DNA from: a virus | Virus record (IMG/VR): IMGVR_UViG_3300034121_001409 | Location: 1-64,000 of that record | Reading direction: 5' to 3' (one strand) | Length of the DNA stretch: 64,000 nt | In this document: piece by piece, positions 42,973 through 59,955 of the stretch | Numbering within the stretch: the stretch's first letter is position 1 | Layout: each line of letters opens with the position of its first letter | The notes under the pieces: model-generated | Seen by the model: the letters and a program-made list of their open reading frames with translations, nothing else | Databases searched by the model: none | Told to the model about the DNA's origin: nothing | Made by a program: the position numbers and the translations under genes

Positions 42973-44583
42973 CTATACTGAAGAACTTGAAGTTTCAATA
43001 GCCGGATGTCCGAGAACGAACAAGTTGGCTGATGCAGCCCATCCTCCGAACTCACCTCTGAAGTGGATTCGTGATACGTCAAAGTCATCAGTTGGTTTTT
43101 TAACCAGCTGCTCTCCGGCACTACCTGTAGAGAAGATTTCCACCTCTCTTGTGTAAGAGCCTTTCTTAGCGTACACATATCCCCAATATGGCATCTCTGC
43201 TCCGTTGTATTCTGCTCCGAATTGCTCATTCATAGAGGCTGTAGTAGCCTGATTCTTGAACGTTCCGATTGGCATCAACAGGTACATATTTCTGTATGTA
43301 TAAGAAGCACCGCCTAACATTTCAGGGTCATCGAAAGAAGTCACATATTTAAAGTGATACTTTCTTGGAGATGGCATCAATGATACTGATTGGAAACCTA
43401 CAGCAACAGCTAATGCATTAGACTCATCCGGTGTTAAATTACCGTAGAGTTCGCCTGATACATATTTGTTTTCAGAATCAGTTCCTACATAATCTTTCAA
43501 CACTTCTCTCAGTTCCTGACCGAATGGCGCACCATATGTCCACGCATAGTTGTATGGAGCATTTTCTGCATCCAACAGGTCATTGGTTTGGTCAAAATCT
43601 GACATTCCAAATGCACCTACAGTGTATGGGTTAGTGTTACCGTTCTGAGCAACAAATGGATACAATCCCTGAGTTGTACGAACCGCAATGCCTTCTAAAT
43701 CCGGCTCTACTACAGAAGCATCGTTTTCGAAGTAGTTATCATTCAGAGTACCGAATGCAATCGCACCATCTCTTGACAGCTTCAATCTGCGTTCTGCTTC
43801 TTCTGCGCCTAACACTTCATAAGATACCATTTTTTGTCCATCGAACTCAAATGGGAACTCCTGAATCTGATATGCACGAACATAAGAAGAACCTGTCTTG
43901 CTGTCATCATCTTTAATGATTTGTAATTGATTCTTGTAGGTAGCCCATCTTGAGTTGATACCTCGTCTTTGCTTACTTCCTTCAGCATTGGCATTTGAGA
44001 TAACAGCTATAGTGTTTCCGGCTCCCTGTCCGACTCCACCTAACAAACTTATTAAATCCACACTTGCATCATTTGGCACACAAGTAATTTCCAATGTTCC
44101 CATTGGAGCCTGTGAGATACCTGTTACCCAAGCATTCACGAATGTTGTGTGATTAATTTGGAAGTGTAAAATATCCTTTGTACGAGCATAAGATGATTTG
44201 ATACCATTGCTTCCTGTATAAACAGTAGATGGGTCTAATTGGAAAGTGATAGCTGCGCCATCTCCACCTGCACCTGCGTATCCATCTTCTGATACAACCA
44301 ATGCCTGTACGGTACGGTCTTTTTCAAAGTGACCATACTCACCATTTTCTCCGGCTACTACCGGAATTTGAAAACCTAAATATTTGATTAAGTCAGCGAA
44401 GAAGAACTTATCTGTTCTTGGATGACGATTTACCGCATTTGGTAAATATACAGGTTTGAACATTTCTCTGTCGAAAGAAGAAATTAGCTGTGTGTTCCAC
44501 ACACCTGCGGATATTGCCGAAGGTTTTAAGTTAATTGGGGCTACTACCGGAGTGTCACCAATTTTGTATACGCTTACTGCCAT
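42973..44583 (-). CDS. Major capsid protein
   Basis: Follows portal and scaffold; N.LQIIK, E....LK...D.A..FG and TTQGL motifs; strongly biased codons; terminator downstream. Confidence 0.8.
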   Translation of the reverse strand: MAVSVYKIGDTPVVAPINLKPSAISAGVWNTQLISSFDREMFKPVYLPNAVNRHPRTDKFFFADLIKYLGFQIPVVAGENGEYGHFEKDRTVQALVVSEDGYAGAGGDGAAITFQLDPSTVYTGSNGIKSSYARTKDILHFQINHTTFVNAWVTGISQAPMGTLEITCVPNDASVDLISLLGGVGQGAGNTIAVISNANAEGSKQRRGINSRWATYKNQLQIIKDDDSKTGSSYVRAYQIQEFPFEFDGQKMVSYEVLGAEEAERRLKLSRDGAIAFGTLNDNYFENDASVVEPDLEGIAVRTTQGLYPFVAQNGNTNPYTVGAFGMSDFDQTNDLLDAENAPYNYAWTYGAPFGQELREVLKDYVGTDSENKYVSGELYGNLTPDESNALAVAVGFQSVSLMPSPRKYHFKYVTSFDDPEMLGGASYTYRNMYLLMPIGTFKNQATTASMNEQFGAEYNGAEMPYWGYVYAKKGSYTREVEIFSTGSAGEQLVKKPTDDFDVSRIHFRGEFGGWAASANLFVLGHPAIETSSSSV

Positions 44584-45724: not shown

Positions 45725-48127
45725 CTAAGCCTGTTGTTGCGGTTGCTCCATAGCTGTGTTTAAATATTTCATCAACTCATCCATACTCGGTTTTATACCT
45801 TGAGATATAAGTCCTACCTGCTGACGGAGTGCTTCGTTTTCTAATACTCCATCTTCTAAATCTGCCTCTATAGCCTTAAGGTTTGCATCGTATACGAATT
45901 GATTGTGAGCCAAACTCATATCCATAGCAGCCTTTGTAACAATAGTTTTTCGTGCCTCTTCCTGTGCAAGTTGAGCAGACATTCTTTGTTGCTCACCGTT
46001 AGCCTGTATATCTTGCTGTTTTCTCTCTTGGTCTTTTACTTCCTGCTCTTTAACAGATTTTCCCAACATCAATTGAGCCAATGGAATATTACCTGCCATG
46101 ATAACTCTATATAGTCCTATGTAAACATCTTCAGTAATTCCACCATAACCAAACTTAGCTCTTTGTTGAGTCAGACCAATTAACTGCTGTAATAAGAATT
46201 GTTTTTCTTGGTAATTAGAAGAAAGGGTAACCTTCAGGTTGAACTTTATACCTGCAATATCTTCTGTGAGTTTTATTATCTCGATATCGTCTTCATGCAG
46301 TGGGTGGTATTCAATATCAATCTCACCATCCTTGCATATTTGTTGCCATCTCAACATAGATGAAGTATAAGCAGCCTCTGATAACTCTCGCATTGCAGCG
46401 TATTCCGGCTGTATTGAATTGTTTGCTGCTTCTAATTTCGCCTCCCCTTGAACCTTTAGCATTCTTTCTGAATCTGTACTACCATTGGCAACATCATTCA
46501 TTCCGGTATTGATACTTATATTATTTCTATGTTCATTTATTCCGTCAGAAAATATTTTAAACTGCTCAAATGCATTTGATTGTATAGGGGCAACAAGGGA
46601 GTGTATGTTTGCTATTGGGTTACCATGAGAATCGACAGTATCCAAACTCATGATACCTTTCTCTAATAGCATATTCATTAAATCTGTAGGAGTTTTTATC
46701 TCTCCATCAAGTTCTGTGTTTTCAAGTGCTGATTTATTAAATATCATAGCAGGTGGAGCCGGTATAGCGGCTATAGCATTTCTTCTTTTGTAGGTCAAAA
46801 TATTTATCATATCAATATCCGGAACCATTCTTTCTACCTTAGATGTAACTCCTGTTGTTGCTACATGATAAGATAATATTCCTTTTTTATATCCGGTCTT
46901 GCCTTGTCTTGGTGTGTTGTCATTTTTATCACAACCAAAAGCAAAATCAGTTCCTATAATCCATTTGCACTCATACTGATACTGCACTCTTTTTTCTATC
47001 AACTTAGCACCTCTTGCTTCTTCGCTTTTATCAAGTTTGTAGTCGTATGGTTTTTCGCTGAAATCAAGAGTTCCGTATTTCTCAATATTTTTTTCTCTGA
47101 ATTTTCTAACGTCTGAGCTTAACCAACATCCATCCAACACCCAAACTTTTATATGGTCATAAGGATAATACCCATTCTCATTATAACATTGTGTGTGCTG
47201 AACACTTGCGAATGCATTATTGAATCCGTATTCCTTAGCAATCATCATTAAGTGCTTCTCCTGTAGTTTACTTTCATTTCTTATTTCCGCTATAGTCATC
47301 TGTCTGATTTCTGCCGCCATTGTTATATCTCTGAAATCAAGATATTTTGAACATGGCAGAAGCAGCATATCAGGGTCTACATACCTCAATATCGGAGTGT
47401 TTATAGAATGGTCAATATAATCCTTTACAGCAACTATACCGATATCAAAAAGGTCTGCAAATAACATATACTTTAACATCCTCCATTTGGATTCAGTATT
47501 GGTTACATTTAATGCTTTCTGAAGTTTAATTTCTTCTTGGAGTTTTAAGCCTCCTGTCTTCACAAACAAATCAACATCCTGCTCAGATTCAAATTGTTGC
47601 TCCGGTTGTTTAAAATCAACACCTAATGAGCCGATGAAATTTTTAAATGTTTGATTCTGCCATATTTTTAACGCAGCTATTTCTTTTTTTCTTTTATATT
47701 GCGATGCAGGGTCTACAGCTCTTACTGCAACATCATAATCCATCTTGTCGTATATTCCCAATATTTGGTCTCTTAGGTTAACATGACCTCTGTCTTGTTC
47801 CCAAGATATATTCATGTACGATTTTTTTCTTTGGTTACCCTTGCTGTCTTTTCCAAGTAACTGCTCTTTATATTTATCGGTGTTGGTTTGTCCTTTTGCA
47901 TAAGAGCGCAAAGTTGAATACTTTGAGTTACCTCCGTTTATAATTCCATTGAGTAATCCTCCGGTGTGAAGCATACCGTTTGCTCCTAAAGTAAAAAGGT
48001 GCTTCATTACTGAAACATAGTACGACATCTCTTCCTTTTTCTTAGGGTCGATGTCGTGGTGCGGCATACGGTTGGATATTATATTATCCTGACCTTTATG
48101 TGTTTCGACTAATTTATTTAGATTCAT
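45725..48127 (-). CDS. Portal protein
   Basis: LRSYAKG.....KYK, MNISW, V.AVDP.S, LRYVDP and TGMND..NG motifs; directly after the terminase. Confidence 0.85.
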   Translation of the reverse strand: MNLNKLVETHKGQDNIISNRMPHHDIDPKKKEEMSYYVSVMKHLFTLGANGMLHTGGLLNGIINGGNSKYSTLRSYAKGQTNTDKYKEQLLGKDSKGNQRKKSYMNISWEQDRGHVNLRDQILGIYDKMDYDVAVRAVDPASQYKRKKEIAALKIWQNQTFKNFIGSLGVDFKQPEQQFESEQDVDLFVKTGGLKLQEEIKLQKALNVTNTESKWRMLKYMLFADLFDIGIVAVKDYIDHSINTPILRYVDPDMLLLPCSKYLDFRDITMAAEIRQMTIAEIRNESKLQEKHLMMIAKEYGFNNAFASVQHTQCYNENGYYPYDHIKVWVLDGCWLSSDVRKFREKNIEKYGTLDFSEKPYDYKLDKSEEARGAKLIEKRVQYQYECKWIIGTDFAFGCDKNDNTPRQGKTGYKKGILSYHVATTGVTSKVERMVPDIDMINILTYKRRNAIAAIPAPPAMIFNKSALENTELDGEIKTPTDLMNMLLEKGIMSLDTVDSHGNPIANIHSLVAPIQSNAFEQFKIFSDGINEHRNNISINTGMNDVANGSTDSERMLKVQGEAKLEAANNSIQPEYAAMRELSEAAYTSSMLRWQQICKDGEIDIEYHPLHEDDIEIIKLTEDIAGIKFNLKVTLSSNYQEKQFLLQQLIGLTQQRAKFGYGGITEDVYIGLYRVIMAGNIPLAQLMLGKSVKEQEVKDQERKQQDIQANGEQQRMSAQLAQEEARKTIVTKAAMDMSLAHNQFVYDANLKAIEADLEDGVLENEALRQQVGLISQGIKPSMDELMKYLNTAMEQPQQQA

Positions 48128-48156: not shown

Positions 48157-50316
48157 TTACAATATAGTATTCTCTTCAAAATACTGCCTGTTTCTATCCT
48201 TCCTCAATTCATCTCTCTTCTTGTTGCGCTGCTTTTCAGCTTCAACCAAATGCATACTTAATGAATTTCCGTATAATGCATAAGCACAGGCTGAGAACAA
48301 GTCATAGTCAGTCATCTTATCATAAGTAACAGAAAGGCATTCATCAAGAAACTCATTATGAAACTCGTAATCACACGATGAGAGTATATGCTCCTGCACA
48401 ACCATAAACAATGCATCCTTTGTTAAATCATTCGTTACATCACCTGAGTTATCTTTTAACTTCTGCTTCTTTTCGTCATACTTATGCATTAAGTATCCAA
48501 CATATTTTCTCTTCTTAAATCCATCCTGTATGTGTGGATGGTTCATCTCAGGAAACATTTGACATCCGTAAAAAACACACATCTTTATCATGTCATCAAT
48601 GTACTCCTCTTTTGAAGGTGGTCTAAAATTATAGGTGCAAACAAATCTTTTTGTTTTATACCTAAACCACATATCATTCTTCTGCTTATCTGTCAACCCT
48701 TCAGGCATATCTGAAAGCGGAGACTCCATTACCGGATTGAATCTCATAAACACTGCTCCACCACCATTAGAACCCTCTCCTTCGGTAACATCAAAATTAA
48801 ATGTGTCACCTCCTGCCACAAACAGATGACCGTTTGCAGGAACCTTAATACCACCTCTTATGGTACTCTTGTTTCTTAAACTTTCGCTTGGTAAATATGA
48901 AACCCTGAATCTTCCTTTTGGGTTGTCAATAAATTCAACCTCTGTATTTTTTTCTCCGTTTTTCCATACAAAATCTCCAACCCTGATATAATCATTTCCA
49001 TTAAAGAAAAACATTGACCTCTTGTAAAGTTTGTCTTTATCGAATGGACACTTGGCTGCATTGATAGTAAAACACTCTCTTGTTGTGTATGGAAATTTTC
49101 TTATGTTCTCGTAATAAGAGCCGGAGCCTTCTTTAAGTGAGCTTCTTTCAATATCTAATTTCTCTTTTGATTCTCTGAGTTTACTCATTCCAAAATCATC
49201 AATCATCTCTCCGTCATACGCAGGGAAAAATATTCTCCATAATCCGGTTTCTGTTCTATTTAATGCATTTCTTTTATGGTAATCTGAACCATCCCATATT
49301 GCCTTAAATGGCTTGAATCCTTCTCTTCCAACTTCCTCAACCGTTGTGGTGTGATGAGAGAATCCTGTCTTCTGACCAAACGGATTAAACATGGCAGGTT
49401 TTACAACATCCCATCTCTGCATAGCATTTACAGTTTCAAGTTTACCTTCCTCATCTGATATATAATATCCGAGATATGTTGAGTCATATGCAGAAGCCTT
49501 AGCTGACCTGAAATCACAGAAGCTACCTAAATCAATCTGTTCAATTTGCTCACCTTCTCCGGTTGTAAATTTTAACTCAGAAGCCGGAGCTGATAATAAA
49601 TGGCTATGTATTGGTTGAAAAAAGAACGGCATACCTTTCCAACCAAGAACAACCTTATCGAAAAGGTCACTCGCATCTTTATCATTTTTTGATTGTATTC
49701 CGCAATGCCTGTTTATCATTCTCGTCATTTCTTCATACAAGCTCATTGCTGCTCTTACGGATTTACCTGTCTTACGTCTCGTCATTTCAACGATTCCTAT
49801 GCAATCCTTATCATTAACTGCTTCTGTAAGAAAATGGAAAAAACGCCTGTCTCTGTCCATATACACAATCTCAGATTCTGTAACTGACCAATAGTTCATC
49901 CAATAGTACATCTTTCCGGTGATGTATGTACGAACACCATTATTGAAGAACCAAACACCATATAACCTTCTTCTCCACTCCTCAAGTATAAACCTCCAAA
50001 TATCATCGTACTTGTCTTTGCTTTTACGAAGCTCCTTGTGCATCTCATCAGCAAATATCTTCCGGTCTGCTTTCATTCTTGTTCGACCATTATGCTCATC
50101 TACTTCCTTGCTTATTCTTTTCATTAAAGCAGTAAGACGTTCAGGGTATTTTACACGATAAAATTTCTGTAAATGCTGTGGCATTCCATAATTTAAAATA
50201 TCCCTGTCATTAGGGATATCAGGGCATGGAAACACAATTTCTTTTAAGTCATCGTCTAAATCATTGACTATAACAACCTGTTCCTGCGGCTTATATTTGT
50301 GGTCAAGAATTATCAA
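48157..50316 (-). CDS. terL: Terminase large subunit
   Basis: G.WF.NNG..TYITG, Walker A RRKTGKS, Walker B YYISDEEG, coupling TTT, RuvC-like GGD...E.N...D.F. Confidence 0.92.
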   Translation of the reverse strand: MIILDHKYKPQEQVVIVNDLDDDLKEIVFPCPDIPNDRDILNYGMPQHLQKFYRVKYPERLTALMKRISKEVDEHNGRTRMKADRKIFADEMHKELRKSKDKYDDIWRFILEEWRRRLYGVWFFNNGVRTYITGKMYYWMNYWSVTESEIVYMDRDRRFFHFLTEAVNDKDCIGIVEMTRRKTGKSVRAAMSLYEEMTRMINRHCGIQSKNDKDASDLFDKVVLGWKGMPFFFQPIHSHLLSAPASELKFTTGEGEQIEQIDLGSFCDFRSAKASAYDSTYLGYYISDEEGKLETVNAMQRWDVVKPAMFNPFGQKTGFSHHTTTVEEVGREGFKPFKAIWDGSDYHKRNALNRTETGLWRIFFPAYDGEMIDDFGMSKLRESKEKLDIERSSLKEGSGSYYENIRKFPYTTRECFTINAAKCPFDKDKLYKRSMFFFNGNDYIRVGDFVWKNGEKNTEVEFIDNPKGRFRVSYLPSESLRNKSTIRGGIKVPANGHLFVAGGDTFNFDVTEGEGSNGGGAVFMRFNPVMESPLSDMPEGLTDKQKNDMWFRYKTKRFVCTYNFRPPSKEEYIDDMIKMCVFYGCQMFPEMNHPHIQDGFKKRKYVGYLMHKYDEKKQKLKDNSGDVTNDLTKDALFMVVQEHILSSCDYEFHNEFLDECLSVTYDKMTDYDLFSACAYALYGNSLSMHLVEAEKQRNKKRDELRKDRNRQYFEENTIL

Positions 50317-50939
50317 GGCTTAGGTATTTTTATTTTCTTACGGACAACAAGCTCTGTGAAGCCTTCAACCCTTGCATGAGAAAGGAAATCATCATCCGCT
50401 TCCGATTCTAAGTTTTTATCTGACATAAATATCTGACGCTTCATCTCAGATATCCTCTTCAACATATCATGTAATTGCTTCTGTGTTTTTTCGGTTACAG
50501 CAACAGCTTCAACAACATCCTCATTTTCTGAGTCCTGCTGCATCTTAAACAACATCCTGTCATAAGATATTGATGAAACCATAAGAAGCGAATACTCCTG
50601 ACTTTGCTGAAGTGTGCAAAATCTTATAGCCATCCTGTTGGCAGAAGAATTTTTACCGTCAATTATACTAATAACATCATCGTTAAAATCCTTGCTATTT
50701 TTAGACAGCAGTATCTCCATCGCTTTAACCTTTCTGTCTTTTATGTTCTCGAAATCTTTCACCATAACAGATTGCTTATGGTAAACCATCTCCATGTAAT
50801 TAAAGAATAAATCTTCATTCACCGGAAGAGGCTCTTGGAACTCTTTGTACAGGTTTAATGTATTCCAAAGTTTTCGAACACCTTTAGGGTTCCCATGTGG
50901 GTTCCAAAATAAATTTTCAAAATCTTCTTTGTTGTACAT
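50313..50939 (-). CDS. Hypothetical protein, possible terminase small subunit
   Basis: Helical 208-aa ORF overlapping the terL start. Confidence 0.5.
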   Translation of the reverse strand: MYNKEDFENLFWNPHGNPKGVRKLWNTLNLYKEFQEPLPVNEDLFFNYMEMVYHKQSVMVKDFENIKDRKVKAMEILLSKNSKDFNDDVISIIDGKNSSANRMAIRFCTLQQSQEYSLLMVSSISYDRMLFKMQQDSENEDVVEAVAVTEKTQKQLHDMLKRISEMKRQIFMSDKNLESEADDDFLSHARVEGFTELVVRKKIKIPKP

Positions 50940-50940
50940 C

Positions 50941-51198
50941 TTACTCTACTAAATAAACATCAGATTGACGAAGAACTTTATGCACCTCGCCTTTATATTT
51001 AAAATCAAAACCTACAGAGCTTTGGTAATATACGATATCACCTTCCTTAAGCTCCATAGGTTCATTTGGTTTACCTTTCCCTGTTGACACAACAGTTCCC
51101 CTGCTTGGCTTTTCTTTCGCAGATTCAGGCAATATAAGCCCTGTATTGTTTTCTTCCGGTATTGGAAGAACAAGTACCTTATCAAATAGTAATGTCAT
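50941..51198 (-). CDS. groS: Co-chaperonin GroES (Cpn10)
   Basis: L.DKVLV, mobile loop TGLILPESAKEKP, GTVVSTGKG, LKEGDIV and LRQSDV motifs. Confidence 0.93.
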   Translation of the reverse strand: MTLLFDKVLVLPIPEENNTGLILPESAKEKPSRGTVVSTGKGKPNEPMELKEGDIVYYQSSVGFDFKYKGEVHKVLRQSDVYLVE

Positions 51199-51202
51199 TG
51201 TA

Positions 51203-52804
51203 TTAGTTTATTGATTCTAAATCTTCAGAAATAACGCACTCAGTAGTCAGGTATAAACATCCAACAGAAGCTGCATTCTCCAATGCAACCCTGATAACTT
51301 TTATTGGGTCTATAATACCAACCTTCAACAAGTCGGAGTATTTCTTGTTTTTAATATCGTATCCTTCTCCCTCTAACAACATAGACACATCGTGCTTTGA
51401 TGGGTCTACGCCTCCATTTTTTAAAATCTGATTATACGGTTCATTTATTGAATCCAATACAACATTGTATCCCAATGAAAAACCAAAAGAAAGGTGTTCG
51501 AATTTCTTACTTCTTAATTTTGCAGAAATCTTCGTAAGCGTAGCTCCACCTCCGGCAACAAAACCTTCATCAATAGCAGAACGAACTGCACATAAGGCAT
51601 CGTCAACCCTGTCTCTTTTTTCTACAACTTCTGTTTCTGTAAATCCACCGATTTTAATAACAGCTATTCCATTTTTAATTTTCGCCAATCTTCTCTTTGC
51701 AAAATCTCTTTCGAAGTCTGTTATACCATCAGAGGATATCATATCCTTTAATTCTGATATTCGAAGATTGATTGCTTCGAAATCACCACCACCTTTAGCT
51801 ATAATTGTTCTGTGTTTATCCACTGTGATTTTTTCTGCTTTACCAAAATGAACAAGGGATGCATCCTTCAGTAAGATACCTGCATCATCACTGATTATTG
51901 TTGCCCCTGTCACAGTTGCAATATCATCCAAAAACAAATTTCTTTCTTCTCCAAAAGAAGGAGCCTTTATTACACAAACACCTTTTGGTATACCGCCTTG
52001 TTTTAGGTTCATTAAAAGAAACGACATCGCCTCTCCTATAACATCTTCTGCTATAATTAAAAGCGGCTTGTTTACCTTGACGGCATCCTGCACTAACTTC
52101 AGGATATCCTGAGTATAAACTATAGTTTTATTTACAATAACAACCACCGGATTATCCATCTCTGCACTCATCTTGCTTTTATTGGTTACAAAACCAACAT
52201 TAATATAACCCCTGTCTATAAGCAATCCGTCTACCGTCAGTAAACTGTTCTCATTACTATTGCTGTTCTCAGCAGTAACTATTCCATCTATACCAACTTT
52301 TTCATAGGCATCATAAATAAGGCTTCCAATAACAGAATCATTGTTTGCAGATATCGCTGCAATATCATTTATTACCGAGAAGTTTTCGTCTGTAATATTC
52401 ACAGACCTTGATTTAAGTTCACCTACCACATCTCTTACAGCAGTTTCAATTCCATCTTTTATTTCTAATGGAGCATCTTCTGCTTCTAATGCTTCGTCAA
52501 TTTTACCAACTATGGATTGAAATAAAACTGTAGCTGTAGTGGTTCCATCTCCGGCTACCTCTACTGTTTTCTGAGCTACATCCTTAACCATGAGCGCACC
52601 CATGTTTTCAGCAGGGTCTTTAAGCATAATGCTTTTTACCACTGTTACGCCATCTTTTGTGTTGTGCGGTATGGCTCCATATTTTGTGATTGCTACATTT
52701 CTTCCTTTTGCACCAAGTGTTAACTTTACAGCATTTGCAATCTTGTCTATTCCGGCTCTTAATTGTTTTCGGGCTTCTGCACCGAATGTTAAATTCTTAA
52801 TCAT
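51203..52804 (-). CDS. groL: Chaperonin GroEL (Cpn60)
   Basis: AVKLTLGAKGRNV, TKDGVTV, AGDGTTTAT, DRGY, KAPSFG, DRVDDAL and GIIDP.KV.R.AL.NA.S motifs; no GGM tail. Confidence 0.97.
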   Translation of the reverse strand: MIKNLTFGAEARKQLRAGIDKIANAVKLTLGAKGRNVAITKYGAIPHNTKDGVTVVKSIMLKDPAENMGALMVKDVAQKTVEVAGDGTTTATVLFQSIVGKIDEALEAEDAPLEIKDGIETAVRDVVGELKSRSVNITDENFSVINDIAAISANNDSVIGSLIYDAYEKVGIDGIVTAENSNSNENSLLTVDGLLIDRGYINVGFVTNKSKMSAEMDNPVVVIVNKTIVYTQDILKLVQDAVKVNKPLLIIAEDVIGEAMSFLLMNLKQGGIPKGVCVIKAPSFGEERNLFLDDIATVTGATIISDDAGILLKDASLVHFGKAEKITVDKHRTIIAKGGGDFEAINLRISELKDMISSDGITDFERDFAKRRLAKIKNGIAVIKIGGFTETEVVEKRDRVDDALCAVRSAIDEGFVAGGGATLTKISAKLRSKKFEHLSFGFSLGYNVVLDSINEPYNQILKNGGVDPSKHDVSMLLEGEGYDIKNKKYSDLLKVGIIDPIKVIRVALENAASVGCLYLTTECVISEDLESIN

Positions 52805-52818
52805 TGTACTATTTTTAA

Positions 52819-53811
52819 TTAGATGATAAAATTAATGTCTTTTTTTTGAATTAAGTGTATATTTTTAAGTTTTTCGTTTTTTATTAGTATATCGTTCCCA
52901 ATCTTCATTCGCTTTGTGTGTTGAAAATTTACAACATCACCGACTTTAGCCTCAGCATTTTCCTCGTCAAAGTCATAGGTTATATACGACTTGTTTGGTG
53001 TTGATATAAAAACCAATGTTCCTAAACCCCATCTCTTGTCTCCCTTCTCATTAAGGTTAAAAATATTCACACTTGTCTCTGTCTCTACAGTTGTTGGTAT
53101 ATTTTCTATATCGACACCACAGTATCCGTTTATAAAAACAATATCCTCTCCTCTCTCAAAAGCGTAACATAAGTCATACCTGATTAGGTAATACTTTTTA
53201 GATGTGCTTTCGTCTTCAATTATTAAACCAAGAACTTCTGCATTCTCTATTGACAAATAATGGAAATGAACGATGTCATCTTTTTTAACAAGAACCCCAT
53301 CAGGATTATCCCACTTTATTGTCATGTTTGTCATCTTGGCTATAGTGCTATCTGCATACAACTCTCTCTGAGATATCTCTTTTCCAAAAAACATAAGATT
53401 GTCCGGTGCTGCAATCACCTTTCCATAGGTCGATGCAAACCTTTCCTTTTGAAATGATTTATCAATAATAAAATTCGTATTACTCTCTGCCGTTCCTTCC
53501 AACTTCTCAACCAAAACATAATTGTATGGAATCTTATATTCTCCATCAACTATCAAACAAACAACCTCTGATTGGTTTATCACTTCGTGTGTTGAATCAT
53601 TATACTCTATATCAATTCCTGAGTACCTGTCATAAACAACAACATCACCAACAGAGCAGCAGTCAAATTCACTTTTACTTTCTGACACAGCAACAACCAA
53701 ACCCCTGCTTGTTATTCTTTTAAAATAATGATGCATTTTTAAGGTTAACCTTTCTAATTCAGGGTCGTGCTTAAATGGCTTGATTATTATATTTCCTTTT
53801 GTTGGTTTCAT
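52819..53811 (-). CDS. Triple tandem GroES-like protein
   Basis: Three repeats of the Cpn10 pattern (aa ~1-88, ~91-220, ~223-330): P...(V/I)(L/I)(V/I), G.(V/L)(V/I), V/KxGD.V.(Y/F), (L/V)I...(D/E). Confidence 0.72.
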   Translation of the reverse strand: MKPTKGNIIIKPFKHDPELERLTLKMHHYFKRITSRGLVVAVSESKSEFDCCSVGDVVVYDRYSGIDIEYNDSTHEVINQSEVVCLIVDGEYKIPYNYVLVEKLEGTAESNTNFIIDKSFQKERFASTYGKVIAAPDNLMFFGKEISQRELYADSTIAKMTNMTIKWDNPDGVLVKKDDIVHFHYLSIENAEVLGLIIEDESTSKKYYLIRYDLCYAFERGEDIVFINGYCGVDIENIPTTVETETSVNIFNLNEKGDKRWGLGTLVFISTPNKSYITYDFDEENAEAKVGDVVNFQHTKRMKIGNDILIKNEKLKNIHLIQKKDINFII

Positions 53812-54446
53812 AATTCAGATTGGTTGAAAGTCGAGCCGGAGCTAAACTTTTCTTTTGTTGGTTTTTCTTTTGTAGAAGTCAACTTGTTATAAAAATGTTC
53901 CTTAAACTTATCATACGTAAGGTTTTTTGTTTTTAATGATGAATGATACTCTTTTACCTCTGATAATGATTTATCTATTTTGTATGATGAATACTGTAAT
54001 TTTAATCCATCCATTATCTCATCCCATTTTAACTGCAAAGAAAATTTTTCAATTTTTTCTTTATATTTATTATTAGATAAGTCTTTTATTAAATCAGTAT
54101 TTAATTGTGTGCGTTTTACCGTTGACGGTTTTACCGTTGACGGCTTTTCAGTAAACGGTGATTCGAAAAACGTATATTCATTCTCAGAAAACTTTCCGGA
54201 TTCCCCTCTCACTTTTGCTATAGAGCAATATCCTTTTTCAATCAATTCTTTTATTGTGTTTTTAACAGCATCTCTTCCTTCTGTGGTGATAGCCAATAAT
54301 CCATTTACAGATAATTGCCATCCAACAGGAAAGGATAATACTAATGTAAATAACCCTTTTGCTCTTAAAGATAAGTTTGGGTCTTTTAAATAAACATTCG
54401 AAACTACTGTGTAATTTGTTTCCCTTTTGACTCTTATTATTTCCAT
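53808..54446 (-). CDS. Phage replication initiator (N-terminal HTH) containing iterons
   Basis: NYTVVSN..LKD..LSLRAKGL..L.LS.P..W...EG..AV...IKEL...GY motif; internal 15-bp repeats; ends in NQSEL. Confidence 0.8.
   Translation of the reverse strand: MEIIRVKRETNYTVVSNVYLKDPNLSLRAKGLFTLVLSFPVGWQLSVNGLLAITTEGRDAVKNTIKELIEKGYCSIAKVRGESGKFSENEYTFFESPFTEKPSTVKPSTVKRTQLNTDLIKDLSNNKYKEKIEKFSLQLKWDEIMDGLKLQYSSYKIDKSLSEVKEYHSSLKTKNLTYDKFKEHFYNKLTSTKEKPTKEKFSSGSTFNQSEL
54114..54158. repeat. Three tandem 15-bp iteron-like repeats (probable origin)
   Basis: TTTTACCGTTGACGG twice exact, plus CTTTTCAGTAAACGG; AT-rich tract adjacent at ~54040-54105. Confidence 0.75.
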
Positions 54447-54899: not shown

Positions 54900-55862
54900 A
54901 TGCATACTGAAATTATTCCTGAATCAAAAACTACAGCAAAGGTTATCTATCTTGACGCTGTTCCAAAGAGAAGACAATACCTATTAGAAAAAGCTACAAC
55001 ATTCTGTGAATGGAAGCAGGTTAAGTCTACCACAAGAGCAAACTACATTTCAATTATCACAGGATTTTTATCGAGAACAACTGAGCCGCTTAATTGGCTT
55101 ATGGTTCAGGATTACCTAAATATTCTTAGTGAAGAAAAATCCAAATCTACAGCTTGGATACAATCCAATGTGATAAAATCTTTTTTAGAATATTTGGAAG
55201 TTCAGTGTGATATTCAAAACGATGGTTGGAGAAAGGTTAACATAAAGAAATTTAATTACACCGGAGGCAACAAGGAATTTATAGAAGACAAATACTTTAA
55301 GGAGGTGTACAAGATGTTTGACTTTTCTAATATGTCTGATATTCGTGATTATACTGTCTTGAAAGTTTTGCAATCAACAGGCATGAGATTATCTGAGCCT
55401 TACAACATCCGGATTAAAGATATAAAAAAAATACACGACAGCAATGCGAATCCTGTGTATGTTGTTGACTCCATTCAGAAGGGTGGTCATCGCATGGTTG
55501 TGAAACTTCAGGCAGGAACTTTGGATGCGATAAAATTTTATCTGTCACTCAGAGGAACTTATGATAAGGATGATTATTTATTTATAGAGCATAAGTTTAA
55601 ATTTAGAAAACTATACAGACCATTAAACTCATCTGTCTTCTATAAAAAAATAACACAGATGTTTAAGGATGCCGGATGCGAGAATTTTACCACTCATGCT
55701 ATCCGTTATACAGCCGCTATAAAAACACTTGAAATAACCGGAGACGAAGCGATGGCTTCCCGAAAGCTGAATCATATATCCCCTAAGACTATTCAGTATT
55801 ACACAAAAGGGTATCGTGAGAATATAAATGCAATCAATGACATTAACATCGAAATAAATTAG
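54900..55862 (+). CDS. Tyrosine recombinase / integrase (XerC/D-like)
   Basis: SAM-like N-terminus; TGMRLSE (R), KGG (K), HAIR (HxxR), LNH and IQYY (Y) catalytic set. Confidence 0.92.
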   Translation: MHTEIIPESKTTAKVIYLDAVPKRRQYLLEKATTFCEWKQVKSTTRANYISIITGFLSRTTEPLNWLMVQDYLNILSEEKSKSTAWIQSNVIKSFLEYLEVQCDIQNDGWRKVNIKKFNYTGGNKEFIEDKYFKEVYKMFDFSNMSDIRDYTVLKVLQSTGMRLSEPYNIRIKDIKKIHDSNANPVYVVDSIQKGGHRMVVKLQAGTLDAIKFYLSLRGTYDKDDYLFIEHKFKFRKLYRPLNSSVFYKKITQMFKDAGCENFTTHAIRYTAAIKTLEITGDEAMASRKLNHISPKTIQYYTKGYRENINAINDINIEIN

Positions 55863-55863
55863 T

Positions 55864-57267
55864 ATGGCAAACAATCAATTCTTAGAACACTCCATATTGG
55901 GTACTATGCTCAATAACACATCTGCAATGATTATAGGATTGCAGAAAATTAATACACATGAAATTTTCAGCGATGATGTTTCTCAGTTGTGCTACAAAAA
56001 TATACAGGAGATGTTTTTATCTCAGGTGGAGGTAGACGCATTCTCGTTCAAGGAATACCTTACTAAGAAGAAAATGTTTTCGAGAGTAGGTGACGTTACT
56101 TACAAATCAATTTTTGCGCATAACCTTACGATGCCTAATTTCGAACAGAAGCTGCGCTCTCTGAGAGATAATTACATCTACAGGGTTCAGGTACAGACAG
56201 CGAATGATATCTTATCAAAAGCAGCTACAGGTTCTATTCCTCCGGCAGAACTTGCGTTGGAAGCTATCTCTGCTATTGAGGCTACTTTATCAGCAGATAA
56301 ATCAGACAGCACACAAGCTATAGGGTCTCTTTTGTTTCAACTGAATAAGCAAATGAAGAATCCTTCTGCAAAGAAAAATTATGTAACAACAGGCTATTCT
56401 GAGCTTGACGAGTTTGTGAAGTTTCAGGAAGGAGACTTGGTTGTTCTTGCTGCCCGACCATCTATGGGAAAAACAGCATTGCTTCTTGAGATAGCGAGAA
56501 GGCAGTCATTTTTAAACAACATTCCGGTAGCCATATTTTCATTAGAGATGGATGCAATGAGATACACTAAGCGTATAGCTGCTCGTTCTTTAAAGGTTAA
56601 CTCTTCTGTTTTCGATGAAGATTTTAAAGACAAAACCATTGAGAATGAATACAACTCATTAGTAACTAAATTTGCAAACTCTCCATTCTACATAGAGGAT
56701 GACCCTTCTATTACTGTAAATGCTTTATTTGCAAAAATCATAGTTCTTGCTGTATCAAAAAAAATCAGAACATTTGCTATTGACCACATGGGTCTTGTTA
56801 AGTTATTGTTTGATAAGAACAAAAACAAAACCGATGCTATTGGAGAGCTTACAAGTGGATTAAAAATGTTGGCAAGGAAACTTAGGGTCACTATAGTGGT
56901 TCTGAGCCAATTAAACCGAGCAGTAGAACAAAGACCTGTGCCAAGACCTATGCTTTCAGACCTTCGTGACTCCGGCTCTATTGAACAGGATGCGGATATT
57001 GTTATGTTTTTATACCGTACCGATTACTATCCTCAGACAAAATTTGAAGCTAAATCTACAGAGAAGCAGTTTGAGCATTTTAATGGCAAGTATGCGCTTC
57101 GTCATTATACAGAACATGGAGAGCTTCGTGTGGTTGATGTTTCAGGAACCTGTGAGGTTATTGTTGCCAAAAACCGAGATGGCAAAACAGGTAAATTATA
57201 TTTTGATTTCAAGAAGACCTTTGGTGGTTTTTATTACAACGAATCTATTTCATCACTTTTAAAATAA
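55864..57267 (+). CDS. dnaB: Replicative DNA helicase DnaB
   Basis: AARPSMGKT, FSLEM, IDH, LSQLNR, DLRDSGSIEQDAD and AKNRDG motifs. Confidence 0.96.
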   Translation: MANNQFLEHSILGTMLNNTSAMIIGLQKINTHEIFSDDVSQLCYKNIQEMFLSQVEVDAFSFKEYLTKKKMFSRVGDVTYKSIFAHNLTMPNFEQKLRSLRDNYIYRVQVQTANDILSKAATGSIPPAELALEAISAIEATLSADKSDSTQAIGSLLFQLNKQMKNPSAKKNYVTTGYSELDEFVKFQEGDLVVLAARPSMGKTALLLEIARRQSFLNNIPVAIFSLEMDAMRYTKRIAARSLKVNSSVFDEDFKDKTIENEYNSLVTKFANSPFYIEDDPSITVNALFAKIIVLAVSKKIRTFAIDHMGLVKLLFDKNKNKTDAIGELTSGLKMLARKLRVTIVVLSQLNRAVEQRPVPRPMLSDLRDSGSIEQDADIVMFLYRTDYYPQTKFEAKSTEKQFEHFNGKYALRHYTEHGELRVVDVSGTCEVIVAKNRDGKTGKLYFDFKKTFGGFYYNESISSLLK

Positions 57268-57272
57268 CAACA

Positions 57273-58439
57273 ATGAATTTCGAAAAGGAAGTTTACAACA
57301 AGGAGCGTGGTGTGTTCGTAGAACGCATTCCGGAGCATTCAGATGCTTGGCACGACAGAAGGATAAAAGGAATCGGTGCATCAGACATCGGTAGAATTTT
57401 AGGTCTTAATGATTACGAAGGCGGTAGCTGTATAGAAATCTTCCAAGAGAAGATTGGATTACGCCCTGCTTTCAGAGAGGGCAACAAGTTTACATTTTGG
57501 GGTCACAAACAGGAGCAGCTTATTGCGGATGCTTGGAAGTTTTACGATGGCACAGAAGATGGTTACATTAAAAATGAAGCGGAAGATAAAAAACAACGTG
57601 ATTGCAGAAATGTGTCAGGATTCTTCTCCAATGCCAAGTATCCACATTTGTTCACAAATCTTGACCGGATGATAAACAAGGGTGGCTTCAGGCTTGATGA
57701 CGGTAGTATCCTTTCTGACAATGCTATATTGGAAGTAAAGACAGCTTCATTTAATGTTGCAAAAAAATGGGAGGGCGGTATAGACCCTGCTTACGTTATG
57801 CAGGTGCAGCAGCAGATGATGATAATGGGTCTTGAATATGCGGAGATTGCTTTATTGGAATTAGACCGCAGAAACTTAAAGGTTTTCCCTATGGCTTTAT
57901 CTCCAAACTTGGTAAATCAGATTGAAGAGGAGTCTTATACCTTTTGGTACAAGATGGTTGAACCTGCTAAGGCATTGGCGCAGGAATATTTATTGGAAAA
58001 CGAAAGAGGTAATTTTGATAAGACTCAGAAAATTATGGCAGAGATTCAAAAACTTGAGCCTTCTGCTGACGCATCTGAGAGATACAAAGATTTCATGAAC
58101 GAAAGATGGTTATCTGAACCTAATATCCTAAAGGCTTCACCGGAGATTATTCAAAATATTATTGAGCTTAAATACTTCAAAGAAGTTGAAGCGGCAATAA
58201 AACCTGAATCGACACTTCGTGAGAACAGGATACGTGAGTTTTTTGGTGATGCAGTTTCTGAGTTATCAGGTAGAACACCGGATACCTTAGATTGCGAAGA
58301 GTATGGCAAGGTAACTTGGAAGACTCAGGGTGCAGAAGGCAAAACTAAAGTTCTGCGTACACAGGGTTTTAAAGCGGATGTTTCCGAGCTTGTAGAATCT
58401 GTAAAAAATACAGTAATCGCTAAATCACCACAGGTATGA
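57273..58439 (+). CDS. YqaJ-like viral recombinase exonuclease
   Basis: WH..R..GIGASD, WGH..E, NLDR, LEVKT and Y..QVQQQM motifs. Confidence 0.92.
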   Translation: MNFEKEVYNKERGVFVERIPEHSDAWHDRRIKGIGASDIGRILGLNDYEGGSCIEIFQEKIGLRPAFREGNKFTFWGHKQEQLIADAWKFYDGTEDGYIKNEAEDKKQRDCRNVSGFFSNAKYPHLFTNLDRMINKGGFRLDDGSILSDNAILEVKTASFNVAKKWEGGIDPAYVMQVQQQMMIMGLEYAEIALLELDRRNLKVFPMALSPNLVNQIEEESYTFWYKMVEPAKALAQEYLLENERGNFDKTQKIMAEIQKLEPSADASERYKDFMNERWLSEPNILKASPEIIQNIIELKYFKEVEAAIKPESTLRENRIREFFGDAVSELSGRTPDTLDCEEYGKVTWKTQGAEGKTKVLRTQGFKADVSELVESVKNTVIAKSPQV

Positions 58440-59143
58440 AAGGAGTGATATATCTTGATATAGAGACTGCTCCAAAGGTTCAGTTCTATGCAGATGCAGA
58501 CGATTACACAAAGGAATATTTTGAGAAGAAATTTTCAGAGTCTAATCTTACAGAAAAAATGACGGTTGCTGAGTTTTACGAAAAGAAGGTTTCATTGTAC
58601 GCTGAATTTTCAAAGATTGTATGCTTGGTTCTTGCCACACATATAGCAGACAATACTTTTAAATTTAAGGTGCTGTATTCAGACAAAGACAATGCAGTTT
58701 TTTCTGAGACAACTTTACTTACAGCTTTCGCTGAGATTCTGAAAAAATCATCCGGTGTTCTTTGCGGTCACAACATTAAAGGTTTTGACATACCGTTCCT
58801 ATGTAAAAGATTTTTAGCAAATGGTCTTGAAGTACCTTCTGCATTAAATCCATACGGAAAGAAGCAGTGGGATATAAACCACATTGACACAATGGAGGCA
58901 GCTAAATTTGGCAATTTTCAGGGTGCAACAACTTTGGATAACCTATGTCATCTTCTTGGTATAAAATCTCCAAAGGGTGATATGGATGGCTCTATGGTTT
59001 CACAGGTGTATCACAACTCCGGTGAGGATGGATTAAACAAGATAGCCAATTACTGTGTAAAAGATGTGGAGGCTGCTGTATTGGTTGCAGACAGGCTTGT
59101 TGGAGGAAATAAATTAAATAACAAAATTAAAATCACATTCTAA
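58436..59143 (+). CDS. PolB-like 3'-5' exonuclease (DEDDy)
   Basis: LDIET, GHNIKGFDIPFL, IDTM and YCVKDV motifs. Confidence 0.9.
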   Translation: MKGVIYLDIETAPKVQFYADADDYTKEYFEKKFSESNLTEKMTVAEFYEKKVSLYAEFSKIVCLVLATHIADNTFKFKVLYSDKDNAVFSETTLLTAFAEILKKSSGVLCGHNIKGFDIPFLCKRFLANGLEVPSALNPYGKKQWDINHIDTMEAAKFGNFQGATTLDNLCHLLGIKSPKGDMDGSMVSQVYHNSGEDGLNKIANYCVKDVEAAVLVADRLVGGNKLNNKIKITF

Positions 59144-59688: not shown

Positions 59689-59704
59689 CAAGTAAAATAC
59701 GAAA

Positions 59705-59953: not shown

Positions 59954-59955
59954 TT

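What the first reader, a model, noticed from the sequence alone, without database searches (positions are those of the whole stretch)
50941..53811. Three-gene phage chaperonin system: GroEL, GroES and a triple-GroES fusion (possible 3+3+1 heptameric lid)
Seen: directly upstream of the terminase-portal-capsid genes lie a 330-aa protein made of three consecutive Cpn10-like units, a full GroEL with intact ATPase motifs but no GGM tail, and a canonical single GroES. The three units have divergent mobile-loop regions, and unit 2 has a ~35-aa insertion at about the roof-hairpin position. Known: GroES lids have 7 domains; chloroplast Cpn20 (two fused domains) reaches 7 by mixing with Cpn10; T4 gp31 is a modified GroES that enlarges the cage for the capsid protein; characterised phage GroELs (EL, OBP) work without a co-chaperonin. 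Inference: two triple subunits plus one single GroES give exactly 7 domains, an asymmetric lid specialised for large virion clients (536-aa capsid, 800-aa portal). I know of no characterised three-domain co-chaperonin.
Basis: partly seen in the sequence, partly recalled or inferred. Interest (0 to 1): 0.85.

Follow-up and report, generated by a model that had tools for sequence, protein, structure and literature searches.

The report
Phage triple-GroES with GroEL and GroES
A 75-kb marine phage encodes a real three-domain GroES-like lid protein beside its own GroEL and a normal GroES; it is a rare three-domain form of a widespread, unstudied family of two-domain phage GroES proteins, and how these build a seven-fold chaperonin lid is still open.

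Summary
The 330-aa protein (52819-53811, minus strand) has three Cpn10 units. Unit 1 passes Pfam. Units 2 and 3 match a GroES profile at 93% and 98% probability. With a deep alignment the AlphaFold model reaches pLDDT 92, and its best PDB matches are the two-domain Chlamydomonas Cpn20 and Cpn23. A canonical GroEL without a GGM tail and an 85-aa GroES follow, then a 208-aa protein, terminase and portal.

Units 2 and 3 together form a "double GroES" module. It is encoded just upstream of the terminase in a large lineage of 60-77 kb podophages of Flavobacteriia. Cultured members (Cellulophaga phi38:1, Elemovirus, Maribacter Panino) carry it annotated simply as GroES. None of 15 metagenomic double-GroES genomes encodes GroEL, so the module normally must use host GroEL. 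One clade has a separate single GroES in 6 of 7 genomes; another has none in 7 of 7.

Three-domain forms arose in two domain orders. One relative has a triple with no GroEL or GroES beside it.

The 3+3+1 lid is plausible but unproven; complex modelling gave only weak support. This is a new variant of a known kind (tandem co-chaperonins such as Cpn20).

The parts
52819..53811 (-). Triple-Cpn10 protein, 330 aa (P0001), architecture S-A-B: a canonical GroES-type unit fused in front of the phage double-GroES module.
   Evidence: ORF. Pfam and PHROG Cpn10 on unit 1. Family search. hhalign of units 2 and 3. AF2 pLDDT 91.8, pTM 0.89. Foldseek top hits Cpn20 and Cpn23. Domain architecture scan.
53539..53811 (-). 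Unit 1 (residues 1-91), a canonical Cpn10 domain. In this phage the mobile loop is degenerate (ERLTLKM), whereas most homologues have S/A-G-I/L-I/L-I/L-P.
   Evidence: Pfam 4.6e-10 over residues 3-86. PDB profile hits cover only 1-87. VIA Z 10-11 to GroES structures. Loop comparison.
53140..53538 (-). Unit 2 (residues 92-224), a divergent Cpn10 domain ('A' unit). Its loop carries a derived motif (hydrophobic-x-I/V-D-T/K-S-F/Y).
   Evidence: hhalign against the single-GroES profile: 93.3%, E 2.7e-7, covering template positions 2-84 of 85. VIA alignment of Cpn20 over model residues 1-220. Loop comparison.
53296..53403 (-). Insertion of about 30-35 aa in unit 2 (about residues 137-172) at the roof-hairpin position. 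It is predicted to be partly helical.
   Evidence: Gap in the hhalign alignment to GroES. AF2 helices at 143-147 and 154-163.
52822..53139 (-). Unit 3 (residues 225-330), a Cpn10 domain ('B' unit). Its loop is TSVNIF here; most homologues have S/A-G-L/I-I/V-x-V.
   Evidence: hhalign 98.4%, E 1e-14, template positions 3-85 of 85. Loop comparison.
51203..52804 (-). Group I chaperonin GroEL, 533 aa (P0002). It is canonical and has no C-terminal GGM repeats.
   Evidence: Pfam Cpn60_TCP1 3.7e-56, phrog_5725 1.6e-136. PDB: ancestral FCB-group chaperonin 1.3e-130, E. coli GroEL 8.8e-115. Sequence.
50941..51198 (-). Single-domain GroES, 85 aa (P0003), with a canonical mobile loop (TGLILP).
   Evidence: Pfam Cpn10 1.8e-16. 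Sequence. Groups with the single GroES of L002 and with the single GroES next to the double in L022/G008 (support 94/82).
50313..50939 (-). Conserved 208-aa protein of unknown family (p208), lying between the GroES genes and the terminase. It is a small-terminase candidate by position only.
   Evidence: No Pfam or PHROG family. Homologues sit in the same position in most related loci. The Atlas search gave no usable hit.
48157..50316 (-). Terminase large subunit, 719 aa.
   Evidence: phrog_6681 5.1e-47. tblastn to TerL of Elemovirus, Cellulophaga and Tenacibaculum phages.
45725..48127 (-). Portal protein candidate, 800 aa.
   Evidence: Homologues follow TerL in all related loci. The gene in this position is annotated as portal in Elemovirus, phi38:1 and Panino. 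No PHROG hit of its own.
42973..44583 (-). Major capsid or virion structural protein candidate, 536 aa. It is a likely chaperonin client (inference).
   Evidence: phrog_13704 'virion structural protein' 1.6e-11. Conserved downstream of the portal in relatives.
53808..54446 (-). Replication-initiator-like protein, 212 aa. Its stop overlaps the start of the triple-GroES gene by 4 nt.
   Evidence: phrog_4707 4.8e-21. Coordinates.

Best explanation
The 330-aa protein is a co-chaperonin subunit made of three Cpn10 domains joined head to tail by short linkers.

It arose when a GroES-type domain was fused to the N-terminus of a two-domain GroES (the A-B module). Podophages of Flavobacteriia encode that module at the head of their packaging and structural genes.

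The module's normal job (inferred) is to cap GroEL during late gene expression so that large virion proteins can fold, as T4 gp31 does. In most relatives the GroEL must be the host's. This phage also carries its own Bacteroidota-type GroEL and a canonical GroES.

The lid I think most likely has seven positions. Two triple subunits fill six, and one single GroES domain fills the seventh. That single domain is the phage's 85-aa GroES here, and host GroES in relatives that lack one. Such a lid would be asymmetric, with two helical roof insertions and mobile loops of three kinds.

Shown: the three folds, the family, the synteny and the co-occurrence pattern. Inferred: GroEL binding, the clients and the stoichiometry.
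For: - Three Cpn10 units.
- Short inter-unit linkers and pTM 0.89, which indicate a fixed arrangement. Cpn20, solved as part of a seven-domain ring, superposes on units 1-2 (176 residues, Z 10.1, rmsd 4.9 A).
- The architecture is conserved in 14 S-A-B proteins.
- Most S-A-B homologues keep GroES-like loop motifs in units 1 and 3.
- The order rep, triple, GroEL, GroES, p208, TerL, portal is conserved in loci L001-L003, whose triple is 45% identical.
- No minus-strand terminator-like site lies between the genes.
- Single-type domains are fused to A-B in both orders: 14 S-A-B and 5 A-B-S among the proteins tallied. L021 and L102 are further A-B-S forms.
- 6 of 7 clade-A double-GroES genomes also encode a separate single GroES.
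- All five GroEL-carrying lineages examined have a single GroES plus a multi-domain one: the window, L002, Elemovirus, phi38:1 and Panino.
- Precedent: in PDB entry 7ekq the chain counts Cpn11 x1, Cpn20 x2, Cpn23 x1 sum to seven domains. The review PMC5780408 states that native chloroplast lids are most likely seven-domain hetero-oligomers.
- Complex model of two triples plus one single: weak support. ipSAE 0.53 against a best control of 0.00. That mark was reached by 58 of 80 solved complexes and 2 of 110 mismatched pairs, but at 0.60 or under by only 7 of those 80 and by both mismatches that passed. The runs agree in at least 63% of contacts and the partner's pLDDT is at least 74. GroES rings are solved structures, so the pass may come from memory.
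Against: - There is no experimental or structural evidence of binding or stoichiometry.
- 7 of 7 clade-B genomes have a double GroES only, with no single GroES and no GroEL.
- L092 (TerL 51% identical to the window's) has an S-A-B triple directly followed by p208 and TerL, with no GroEL or GroES at that position. The contig is only 5.7 kb.
- L021 has an A-B-S triple and no other Cpn10 match, in a record estimated 82% complete.
- In this phage the loops of units 1 and 3 have lost the usual Gly-hydrophobic motif.
- The complex score is in the range the tool calls more often wrong than right unless the guess was likely beforehand.
Confidence: 0.4

Rival explanations
1. There are two independent lids. 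The triple forms its own homo-oligomer, for example a dimer with six domains. It serves mainly host GroEL, as the double does in relatives. The GroEL-GroES pair is a separate cassette inserted between the triple and p208, with its own ordinary GroES7 lid. The adjacency of the three genes is then incidental.
For: - 0 of 15 metagenomic double-GroES genomes encode GroEL.
- Clade B has no single GroES.
- L092 has the triple directly before p208 and TerL, without the cassette.
- In Elemovirus, phi38:1 and Panino the GroEL and GroES genes lie far from the double GroES.
- Six- and eight-domain concatamers function, according to the review PMC5780408.
- P0003 groups with a single GroES of a GroEL-less relative, not with unit 1.
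Against: - Repeated fusion of a single-type domain to the A-B module, in both orders, argues that the two kinds of domain work in one ring.
- Double and single GroES co-occur in 6 of 7 clade-A genomes that have no phage GroEL. This is hard to explain if each makes its own lid for the same host GroEL.
- The complex model gives weak support for contact between the single GroES and the triple: 0.53 against control 0.00, with the caveats given.
Confidence: 0.3
2. The multi-domain GroES-like protein is not a chaperonin lid. It is a GroES-fold assembly or packaging factor. Examples would be a ring that docks on another virion-assembly machine, or a stand-in for the small terminase, given its fixed place just upstream of the large terminase.
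For: - In phi38:1, Elemovirus and Panino the double-GroES gene directly abuts TerL, the usual place of a small terminase.
- The family persists in genomes with no phage GroEL.
- Unit A has a derived loop motif and a large roof insertion.
- In PDB entry 7ekq a Cpn11/20/23 ring sits on ClpP, so GroES-type rings can dock on other machines.
Against: - Homology to Cpn10 is clear in every unit, and GroES-like mobile loops are retained in unit B and in unit 1 of most homologues.
- Canonical GroES domains are repeatedly fused to the module.
- In the window's lineage a separate conserved 208-aa gene occupies the small-terminase position.
- T4 gp31 is a precedent for a phage lid protein that uses host GroEL (own knowledge; gp31 appears among the fold matches).
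Confidence: 0.08
3. The 330-aa reading frame is an assembly or frame artefact that joins a GroES gene to a neighbouring gene.
For: None was found. It was considered only because units 2 and 3 have no direct Pfam hit in this protein.
Against: - The same S-A-B architecture occurs in 14 proteins from independent samples, down to about 25% identity.
- It also occurs in four independent contigs.
- The three-domain model is confident.
Confidence: 0.01

Closest known systems
Chloroplast tandem co-chaperonins Cpn20/Cpn21/Cpn23, with Cpn10/Cpn11
   Same: Several Cpn10 domains are joined head to tail in one chain. They are the best structural matches to the model (7ekq_R E 2.7e-7, 7ekq_Q E 5.5e-5; Z 10.1 over 176 residues). 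A single-domain partner is encoded alongside. A seven-domain hetero-oligomer is the favoured native form.
   Different: Here there are three domains, not two, and the protein is viral, not plastid. Unit 2 carries an insertion of about 30 aa at the roof position. Sequence identity is only 13-15%, so independent origin is likely; that was not tested by phylogeny. No biochemistry exists for the phage proteins.
Phage 'double GroES' proteins encoded upstream of the terminase: phrog_13932, Cellulophaga phage phi38:1 gp089, Elemovirus gp30, Maribacter phage Panino CDS0088
   Same: Units 2 and 3 of the window's protein belong to this family. Elemovirus gp30 matches the double profile at 87% and phrog_13932 at 4.9e-15. 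The genomic position, upstream of TerL and portal, is the same. These phages also carry GroEL and a single GroES. BFVD structural hits include the 200-aa 'Chaperonin cpn10' of Cellulophaga phage phi18:3.
   Different: Those proteins have two domains (180-260 aa) and are annotated simply as GroES or cpn10. I found no paper discussing their tandem nature. The window's protein has an extra canonical unit at the N-terminus, and its GroEL and GroES lie directly beside it.
T4 gp31 (and RB49 CocO)
   Same: A phage-encoded GroES-fold lid dedicated to folding the major capsid protein with GroEL (own knowledge; Marine et al. 2017, PMC5649160). It appears among the fold matches (1g31_A, VIA Z 8.4).
   Different: gp31 has a single domain, forms a homo-heptamer and lacks the roof hairpin. 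Here the chain has three domains, and unit 2 has an enlarged roof element rather than a deleted one.
Viral GroEL>GroES operons of marine virioplankton (Marine et al. 2017, ISME J, PMC5649160)
   Same: The gene order GroEL then GroES is the same. A conserved phage ORF follows, and the structural genes resemble those of Cellulophaga podophages. This matches the window's GroEL, GroES, p208, TerL order.
   Different: In the passages I searched, that paper treats co-chaperonins as single cpn10 domains and does not mention a multi-domain GroES upstream.
Co-chaperonin-independent phage chaperonins (phage EL gp146, OBP, AR9)
   Same: They are phage-encoded GroEL-like proteins (PMC7185714 and PMC9598537, listed).
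   Different: The window's GroEL is close to cellular GroELs (E. coli 8.8e-115) and sits next to co-chaperonin genes. It is therefore expected to need a lid. I made no direct comparison with the EL protein.

Membership tests
Cpn10/GroES (PF00166) | Cpn10 beta-barrel domain detectable by sequence profile | tested here: met
   Unit 1: Pfam 4.6e-10, above the curated cut-off. Unit 2: hhalign 93.3%, E 2.7e-7. Unit 3: 98.4%, E 1e-14. Among standalone relatives of units 2 and 3, 26 of 35 hit PF00166.
Cpn10/GroES (PF00166) | GroES fold in three dimensions | tested here: met
   AF2 pLDDT 91.8. Unit 1 aligns to GroES structures at Z 10-11. Cpn20's two domains align over model residues 1-220. Cpn20 and Cpn23 are the top Foldseek hits, with 221-241 aligned columns. 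Unit 3 was not searched on its own.
Cpn10/GroES (PF00166) | Flexible mobile loop with a Gly plus hydrophobic tripeptide that binds the GroEL apical domain | tested here: inconclusive
   pLDDT drops at the three loop regions. Most S-A-B homologues keep S/A-G-I/L-I/L-type motifs in units 1 and 3. The window's protein instead has RLTLKM and TSVNIF, and unit 2 has a derived motif. The single GroES has the canonical TGLILP.
Cpn10/GroES (PF00166) | Assembly into a seven-position ring that caps GroEL in an ATP-dependent way | not testable with these tools
   There is only a model of two triples plus one single: weak support, ipSAE 0.53 against best control 0.00, with the calibration caveats given. 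A full GroEL7-lid model exceeds the size limit.
Cpn20-type tandem co-chaperonin | Two or more Cpn10 domains head to tail in one polypeptide with short linkers | tested here: met
   Three units lie at residues 1-91, 92-224 and 225-330, with linkers of a few residues.
Cpn20-type tandem co-chaperonin | Common descent with plastid Cpn20 | not tested
   Identity is only 13-15% in the structural alignments. No phylogeny was attempted. Independent fusion in phages is likely, since fusions in two different orders are seen within the phage family itself.
Cpn20-type tandem co-chaperonin | Works as a hetero-oligomer with a single-domain Cpn10 to give seven domains | not testable with these tools
   Co-occurrence is mixed: 6 of 7 clade-A genomes have a single GroES and 0 of 7 clade-B genomes do.
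Phage double-GroES family (phrog_13932 and its metagenomic relatives) | A-B two-unit module detectable by profile | tested here: met
   The profile of the double family scores 3e-67 on the window's protein. More than 100 standalone proteins match only positions of about 93-330 of the triple profile. The direct phrog_13932 hit is weak (6.6e-4).
Phage double-GroES family (phrog_13932 and its metagenomic relatives) | Encoded just upstream of (p208 and) the large terminase and portal | tested here: met
   This holds in the window, in the 52 viral loci and in most of the 51 metagenome loci long enough to show it, and in cultured phages. In the window, GroEL and GroES are inserted between.
Group I chaperonin GroEL (PF00118), for the 533-aa protein | Full-length Cpn60 with the nucleotide-binding motif | tested here: met
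   Pfam 3.7e-56 over residues 22-527. The PDB matches cover residues 3-527. GDGTTTATVL and the DALxAxRxAxxEG motifs can be read in the sequence.
Group I chaperonin GroEL (PF00118), for the 533-aa protein | C-terminal Gly-Gly-Met repeat tail typical of many bacterial GroELs | tested here: not met
   The C-terminus reads ...CVISEDLESIN. The tail varies among GroELs, so its absence does not exclude membership.
T4 gp31-type phage co-chaperonin | Single Cpn10-fold domain with the roof hairpin deleted and a lengthened mobile loop | tested here: not met
   The protein has three domains, and unit 2 has an enlarged roof element, not a deleted one. The fold similarity to gp31 is only general (1g31_A Foldseek E 0.028; VIA Z 8.4).

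The most novel reading that the evidence does not exclude
Flavobacteriia podophages may build chaperonin lids combinatorially from one-, two- and three-domain GroES subunits so that the domains sum to seven: 3+3+1 in this phage, and 2+2+2+1 in relatives, with the phage's or the host's GroES as the odd one. The result would be a deliberately asymmetric lid. Its two or three helical roof insertions and non-equivalent mobile loops would tune the GroEL cage for capsid proteins. This would be a viral reinvention of the chloroplast Cpn20/Cpn10 solution, extended to a three-domain subunit.
Probability: 0.3. Interest if true: 0.75.

Novelty: new variant of a known kind. Interest (0 to 1): 0.6.

Why it matters
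Tandem co-chaperonins pose a symmetry problem: how do even-numbered subunits cap a seven-fold GroEL ring? So far this has been studied only in plastids.

This phage lineage offers a natural series. It has single, double and two kinds of triple GroES, each with and without a phage GroEL. Cultured phage-host pairs that carry the double form also exist (Cellulophaga phi38:1, Flavobacterium Elemovirus, Maribacter Panino). The stoichiometry question is therefore directly testable.

The finding also shows that "co-chaperonin GroES" annotations upstream of terminase genes in these phages hide multi-domain proteins. It suggests that takeover of host GroEL for capsid folding, known from T4 gp31, is common among marine Bacteroidota phages.

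Tried and rejected
- Direct BLAST between the three units and GroES: only unit 1 against GroES was significant.
- AF2 with a 4-sequence alignment gave an unusable model, pLDDT 40. It was repeated with 117 sequences.
- tblastn of the triple, and of one double (P0037), against GenBank phages found nothing. A canonical tandem GroES (P0105) only hit single GroES genes twice over.
The genomic contexts of the other S-A-B proteins (P0006-P0015, P0042, P0085) could therefore not be fetched.
- Locus searches with broad alignments failed for lack of a conserved stretch.
- Searches with P0019, with GroEL and with alignment A9 found no relatives.
- Alignment A7 found only doubles in IMG/VR, and one triple (L092) among metagenome contigs.
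- The tree of single-type domains did not resolve where unit 1 came from.
- p208 has no family, and the Atlas gave no usable match.
- The genome-contig scan found only a 70.5-kb contig binned as a Saccharimonadales MAG, which says nothing reliable about the host.
- The scan's earlier notes held only this same stretch.
- Model coordinates were not readable by scripts, so the angle between successive domains could not be measured.
- The hypothesis that the frame is an artefact was rejected.
- No sigma-70-type promoter signal stood out above the shuffles. Bacteroidota promoters are not covered by that scan.

Full report
**What is there.** On the minus strand, seven genes run head to tail with gaps or overlaps of a few bases:
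- a replication-initiator-like gene (53808-54446)
- a 330-aa ORF (52819-53811)
- a 533-aa ORF (51203-52804)
- an 85-aa ORF (50941-51198)
- a 208-aa ORF (50313-50939)
- the large terminase (48157-50316)
- an 800-aa portal candidate (45725-48127)

No terminator-like site on that strand separates them. The window belongs to a 75,194-bp virus record with direct terminal repeats.

**GroEL and the single GroES.** The 533-aa protein is a canonical group I chaperonin:
- Pfam Cpn60 3.7e-56 and phrog_5725 1.6e-136.
- The best solved relative is an ancestral Fibrobacteres-Chlorobi-Bacteroidetes (FCB) chaperonin at 1.3e-130. E. coli GroEL scores 8.8e-115.
- The nucleotide-binding motif GDGTTTATVL is present. 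The C-terminus has no GGM repeats.

The 85-aa protein is an ordinary GroES (Pfam 1.8e-16) with the loop TGLILP.

**The 330-aa protein has three Cpn10 units.** Direct searches see only unit 1 (Pfam 4.6e-10 over residues 3-86; PDB profile hits confined to 1-87). The three parts do not match each other by BLAST.

An exhaustive profile search changed the picture. About ten full-length relatives appeared. So did more than a hundred standalone proteins of 210-260 aa that match only positions of about 93-330. Of 35 such proteins, 26 hit Pfam Cpn10, several with two stretches.

Splitting their alignment at the unit boundary and comparing each half with a single-GroES profile gave:
- Unit 2: 93.3% probability, E 2.7e-7, covering the whole GroES length with an insertion of about 30 residues at the roof-hairpin position.
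- Unit 3: 98.4%, E 1e-14.
- Unit 2 against unit 3: 95.8%.

AlphaFold2 with four sequences failed (pLDDT 40). With 117 sequences it gave pLDDT 91.8 and pTM 0.89, with confidence dips at three loop regions.

The top Foldseek PDB hits are the two-domain Chlamydomonas co-chaperonins Cpn20 and Cpn23 (7ekq_R E 2.7e-7, 221 columns; 7ekq_Q, 241 columns), followed by GroES structures and T4 gp31. VIA-align gives Z 10-11 for unit 1 against GroES. It gives Z 10.1 (176 residues, rmsd 4.9 A) for Cpn20 over model residues 1-220.

**The family it belongs to.** I call the units S (canonical single type), A (unit 2 type, with the roof insertion) and B (unit 3 type). Among the proteins tallied, mostly the 150 best hits of the profile search, the architectures are:

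| Architecture | Count |
|---|---|
| A-B | 111 |
| S-A-B (the window's type) | 14 |
| A-B-S | 5 |
| S-S | 7 |
| At least four S-type units (571 aa) | 1 |

A GroES-type domain has thus been fused to the A-B module at least twice, once at each end.

Fifty-two IMG/VR loci and about fifty metagenome loci carry the A-B gene. Where the contig is long enough, it sits just upstream of homologues of p208, the terminase, the portal and the capsid protein of the window.

The terminase places the lineage near cultured podophages of Flavobacteriia (Elemovirus, Cellulophaga phages and Tenacibaculum phage Gundel_1). In Elemovirus, Cellulophaga phi38:1 and Maribacter phage Panino, a 180-194 aa gene annotated "co-chaperonin GroES" or "chaperonin cpn10" directly precedes the terminase. 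The Elemovirus protein belongs to phrog_13932 (4.9e-15) and aligns across both units of the double profile (87%). BFVD structural hits tell the same story and include a 304-aa viral protein that may be another triple.

**Who has GroEL and a single GroES.**

| Group | Multi-domain GroES | Single GroES | Phage GroEL |
|---|---|---|---|
| Window (75-kb DTR record) | S-A-B | 1 | yes |
| L001-L003 (triple 45% identical) | S-A-B | 1, same synteny | yes |
| Elemovirus, phi38:1, Panino | A-B | 1 each, distant from A-B | yes |
| Clade A (TerL about 750 aa, 65-77 kb) | A-B | 6 of 7 genomes | 0 of 7 |
| Clade B (TerL 669 aa, 62-66 kb) | A-B | 0 of 7 genomes | 0 of 7 |
| L021 (82% complete) | A-B-S | none detected | no |
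| L092 (5.7-kb fragment, TerL 51% identical) | S-A-B | none beside it | none beside it |

In all, 0 of 15 metagenomic A-B or A-B-S genomes have a GroEL, and most of them are complete or nearly so. Marine et al. 2017 (PMC5649160) already noted that phi38:1 has GroES and GroEL. In L092 the triple is followed directly by p208, TerL and portal.

The single GroES of the window groups with that of L002 and with the single GroES lying right after the double in L022 (support 94/82). The origin of unit 1 is unresolved.

**Reading.** The A-B module is an old, conserved part of this phage lineage. It usually operates without a phage GroEL. By homology and by analogy with T4 gp31, it most likely caps host GroEL when virion proteins are made (inference).

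The window's sub-lineage differs in two ways. It added a canonical unit in front of the A-B module. It also carries a Bacteroidota-type GroEL and a single GroES wedged between the triple and p208.

The repeated S fusions argue that S-type and A-B-type domains sit side by side in one ring. This makes mixed lids credible: 2+2+2+1 in clade A and 3+3+1 here. The chloroplast system is a precedent. In 7ekq the chain counts Cpn11 x1, Cpn20 x2 and Cpn23 x1 sum to seven domains. The review PMC5780408 states that native lids are most likely seven-domain hetero-oligomers.

A model of two triples plus one single GroES gave only weak support:
- ipSAE 0.53 against a best control of 0.00.
- That mark was reached by 58 of 80 solved complexes and 2 of 110 mismatched pairs, but at 0.60 or under by only 7 of the 80 and by both mismatches that passed.
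- The runs agree in at least 63% of contacts, and the partner's pLDDT is at least 74.
- The pass may reflect memory of solved GroES rings.

Three things count against an obligatory 3+3+1:
- Clade B manages with doubles alone.
- L092 has the triple without the cassette at that position.
- The same review reports that six- and eight-domain concatamers function.

Host GroES could supply the odd domain wherever a phage single GroES is missing. Absence of a phage single GroES therefore does not refute mixing.

In the window's own protein the loops of units 1 and 3 have lost the Gly-hydrophobic motif that most homologues keep. This may mean that fewer than seven loops engage GroEL, or that the triple co-evolved with the phage GroEL. 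Either is speculation.

**Verdict.**
- The three-gene chaperonin set is real and conserved in a relative whose triple is 45% identical.
- The lid stoichiometry is open. I put 3+3+1 at about 0.3-0.4, independent lids at about 0.3, and a role unrelated to chaperonins at under 0.1.
- I found no paper on natural three-domain co-chaperonins or on the tandem nature of the phage proteins. Absence from the searched library is not proof.
- The class (tandem Cpn10) is known from plastids, and two-domain phage members already sit in GenBank under plain GroES names. This is therefore a new variant of a known kind.
- It is interesting mainly because it opens a tractable natural series for the lid-symmetry question.

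Noticed in passing
window 16690-29961 (-) and 32147-36937 (-): Two giant ORFs of 4423 aa and 1596 aa lie in the structural region. Together they take up about a quarter of the 75-kb genome.
   Followed up: no
window 54900-55862 (+), with 55864-61665 (+): An integrase-like gene (phrog_1, 6e-18) opens a divergent replication module: DnaB-like helicase, RecE-like exonuclease, 3'-5' exonuclease and primase. The record has direct terminal repeats. Whether the phage is temperate is unclear.
   Followed up: no
L085-L089 and L091 (single GroES genes of clade-A genomes G001-G003 and G006-G008): The distal single GroES proteins of clade A lack the roof hairpin. Most carry two cysteines there (CGPGC, CGDGC, CGPRC), which could be a disulfide or metal site.
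   Followed up: partly
P0066 (571 aa): This protein has at least four Cpn10-type units in one chain. It is an even longer natural GroES concatamer. Its source and context are unknown.
   Followed up: partly
L017:11816-15334 and L130:1910-4957: The large-terminase homologues here are 1172 and 1015 aa, against about 670-750 aa in relatives. This suggests an inserted element such as an intein.
   Followed up: no
L146 (JBFIJM010000002.1, 70,548 bp): The only hit in the bacterial and archaeal genome collection is a 70.5-kb contig binned as a Candidatus Saccharimonadales MAG. It carries a double GroES 40% identical to the query. The contig has the size of a whole phage genome, so it is probably a mis-binned phage.
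   Followed up: no
window 50313-50939 (-): p208 is conserved between the multi-domain GroES gene and the terminase across the metagenomic lineage, but it has no known family. It is a small-terminase candidate by position only. No annotated gene lies between the double GroES and TerL in Elemovirus, phi38:1 or Panino.
   Followed up: partly
BFVD entry A0A516L046 (304 aa): This viral protein aligns to the triple model over 379 columns (TM 0.53/0.57). It may be another three-domain GroES already present in UniProt.
   Followed up: no
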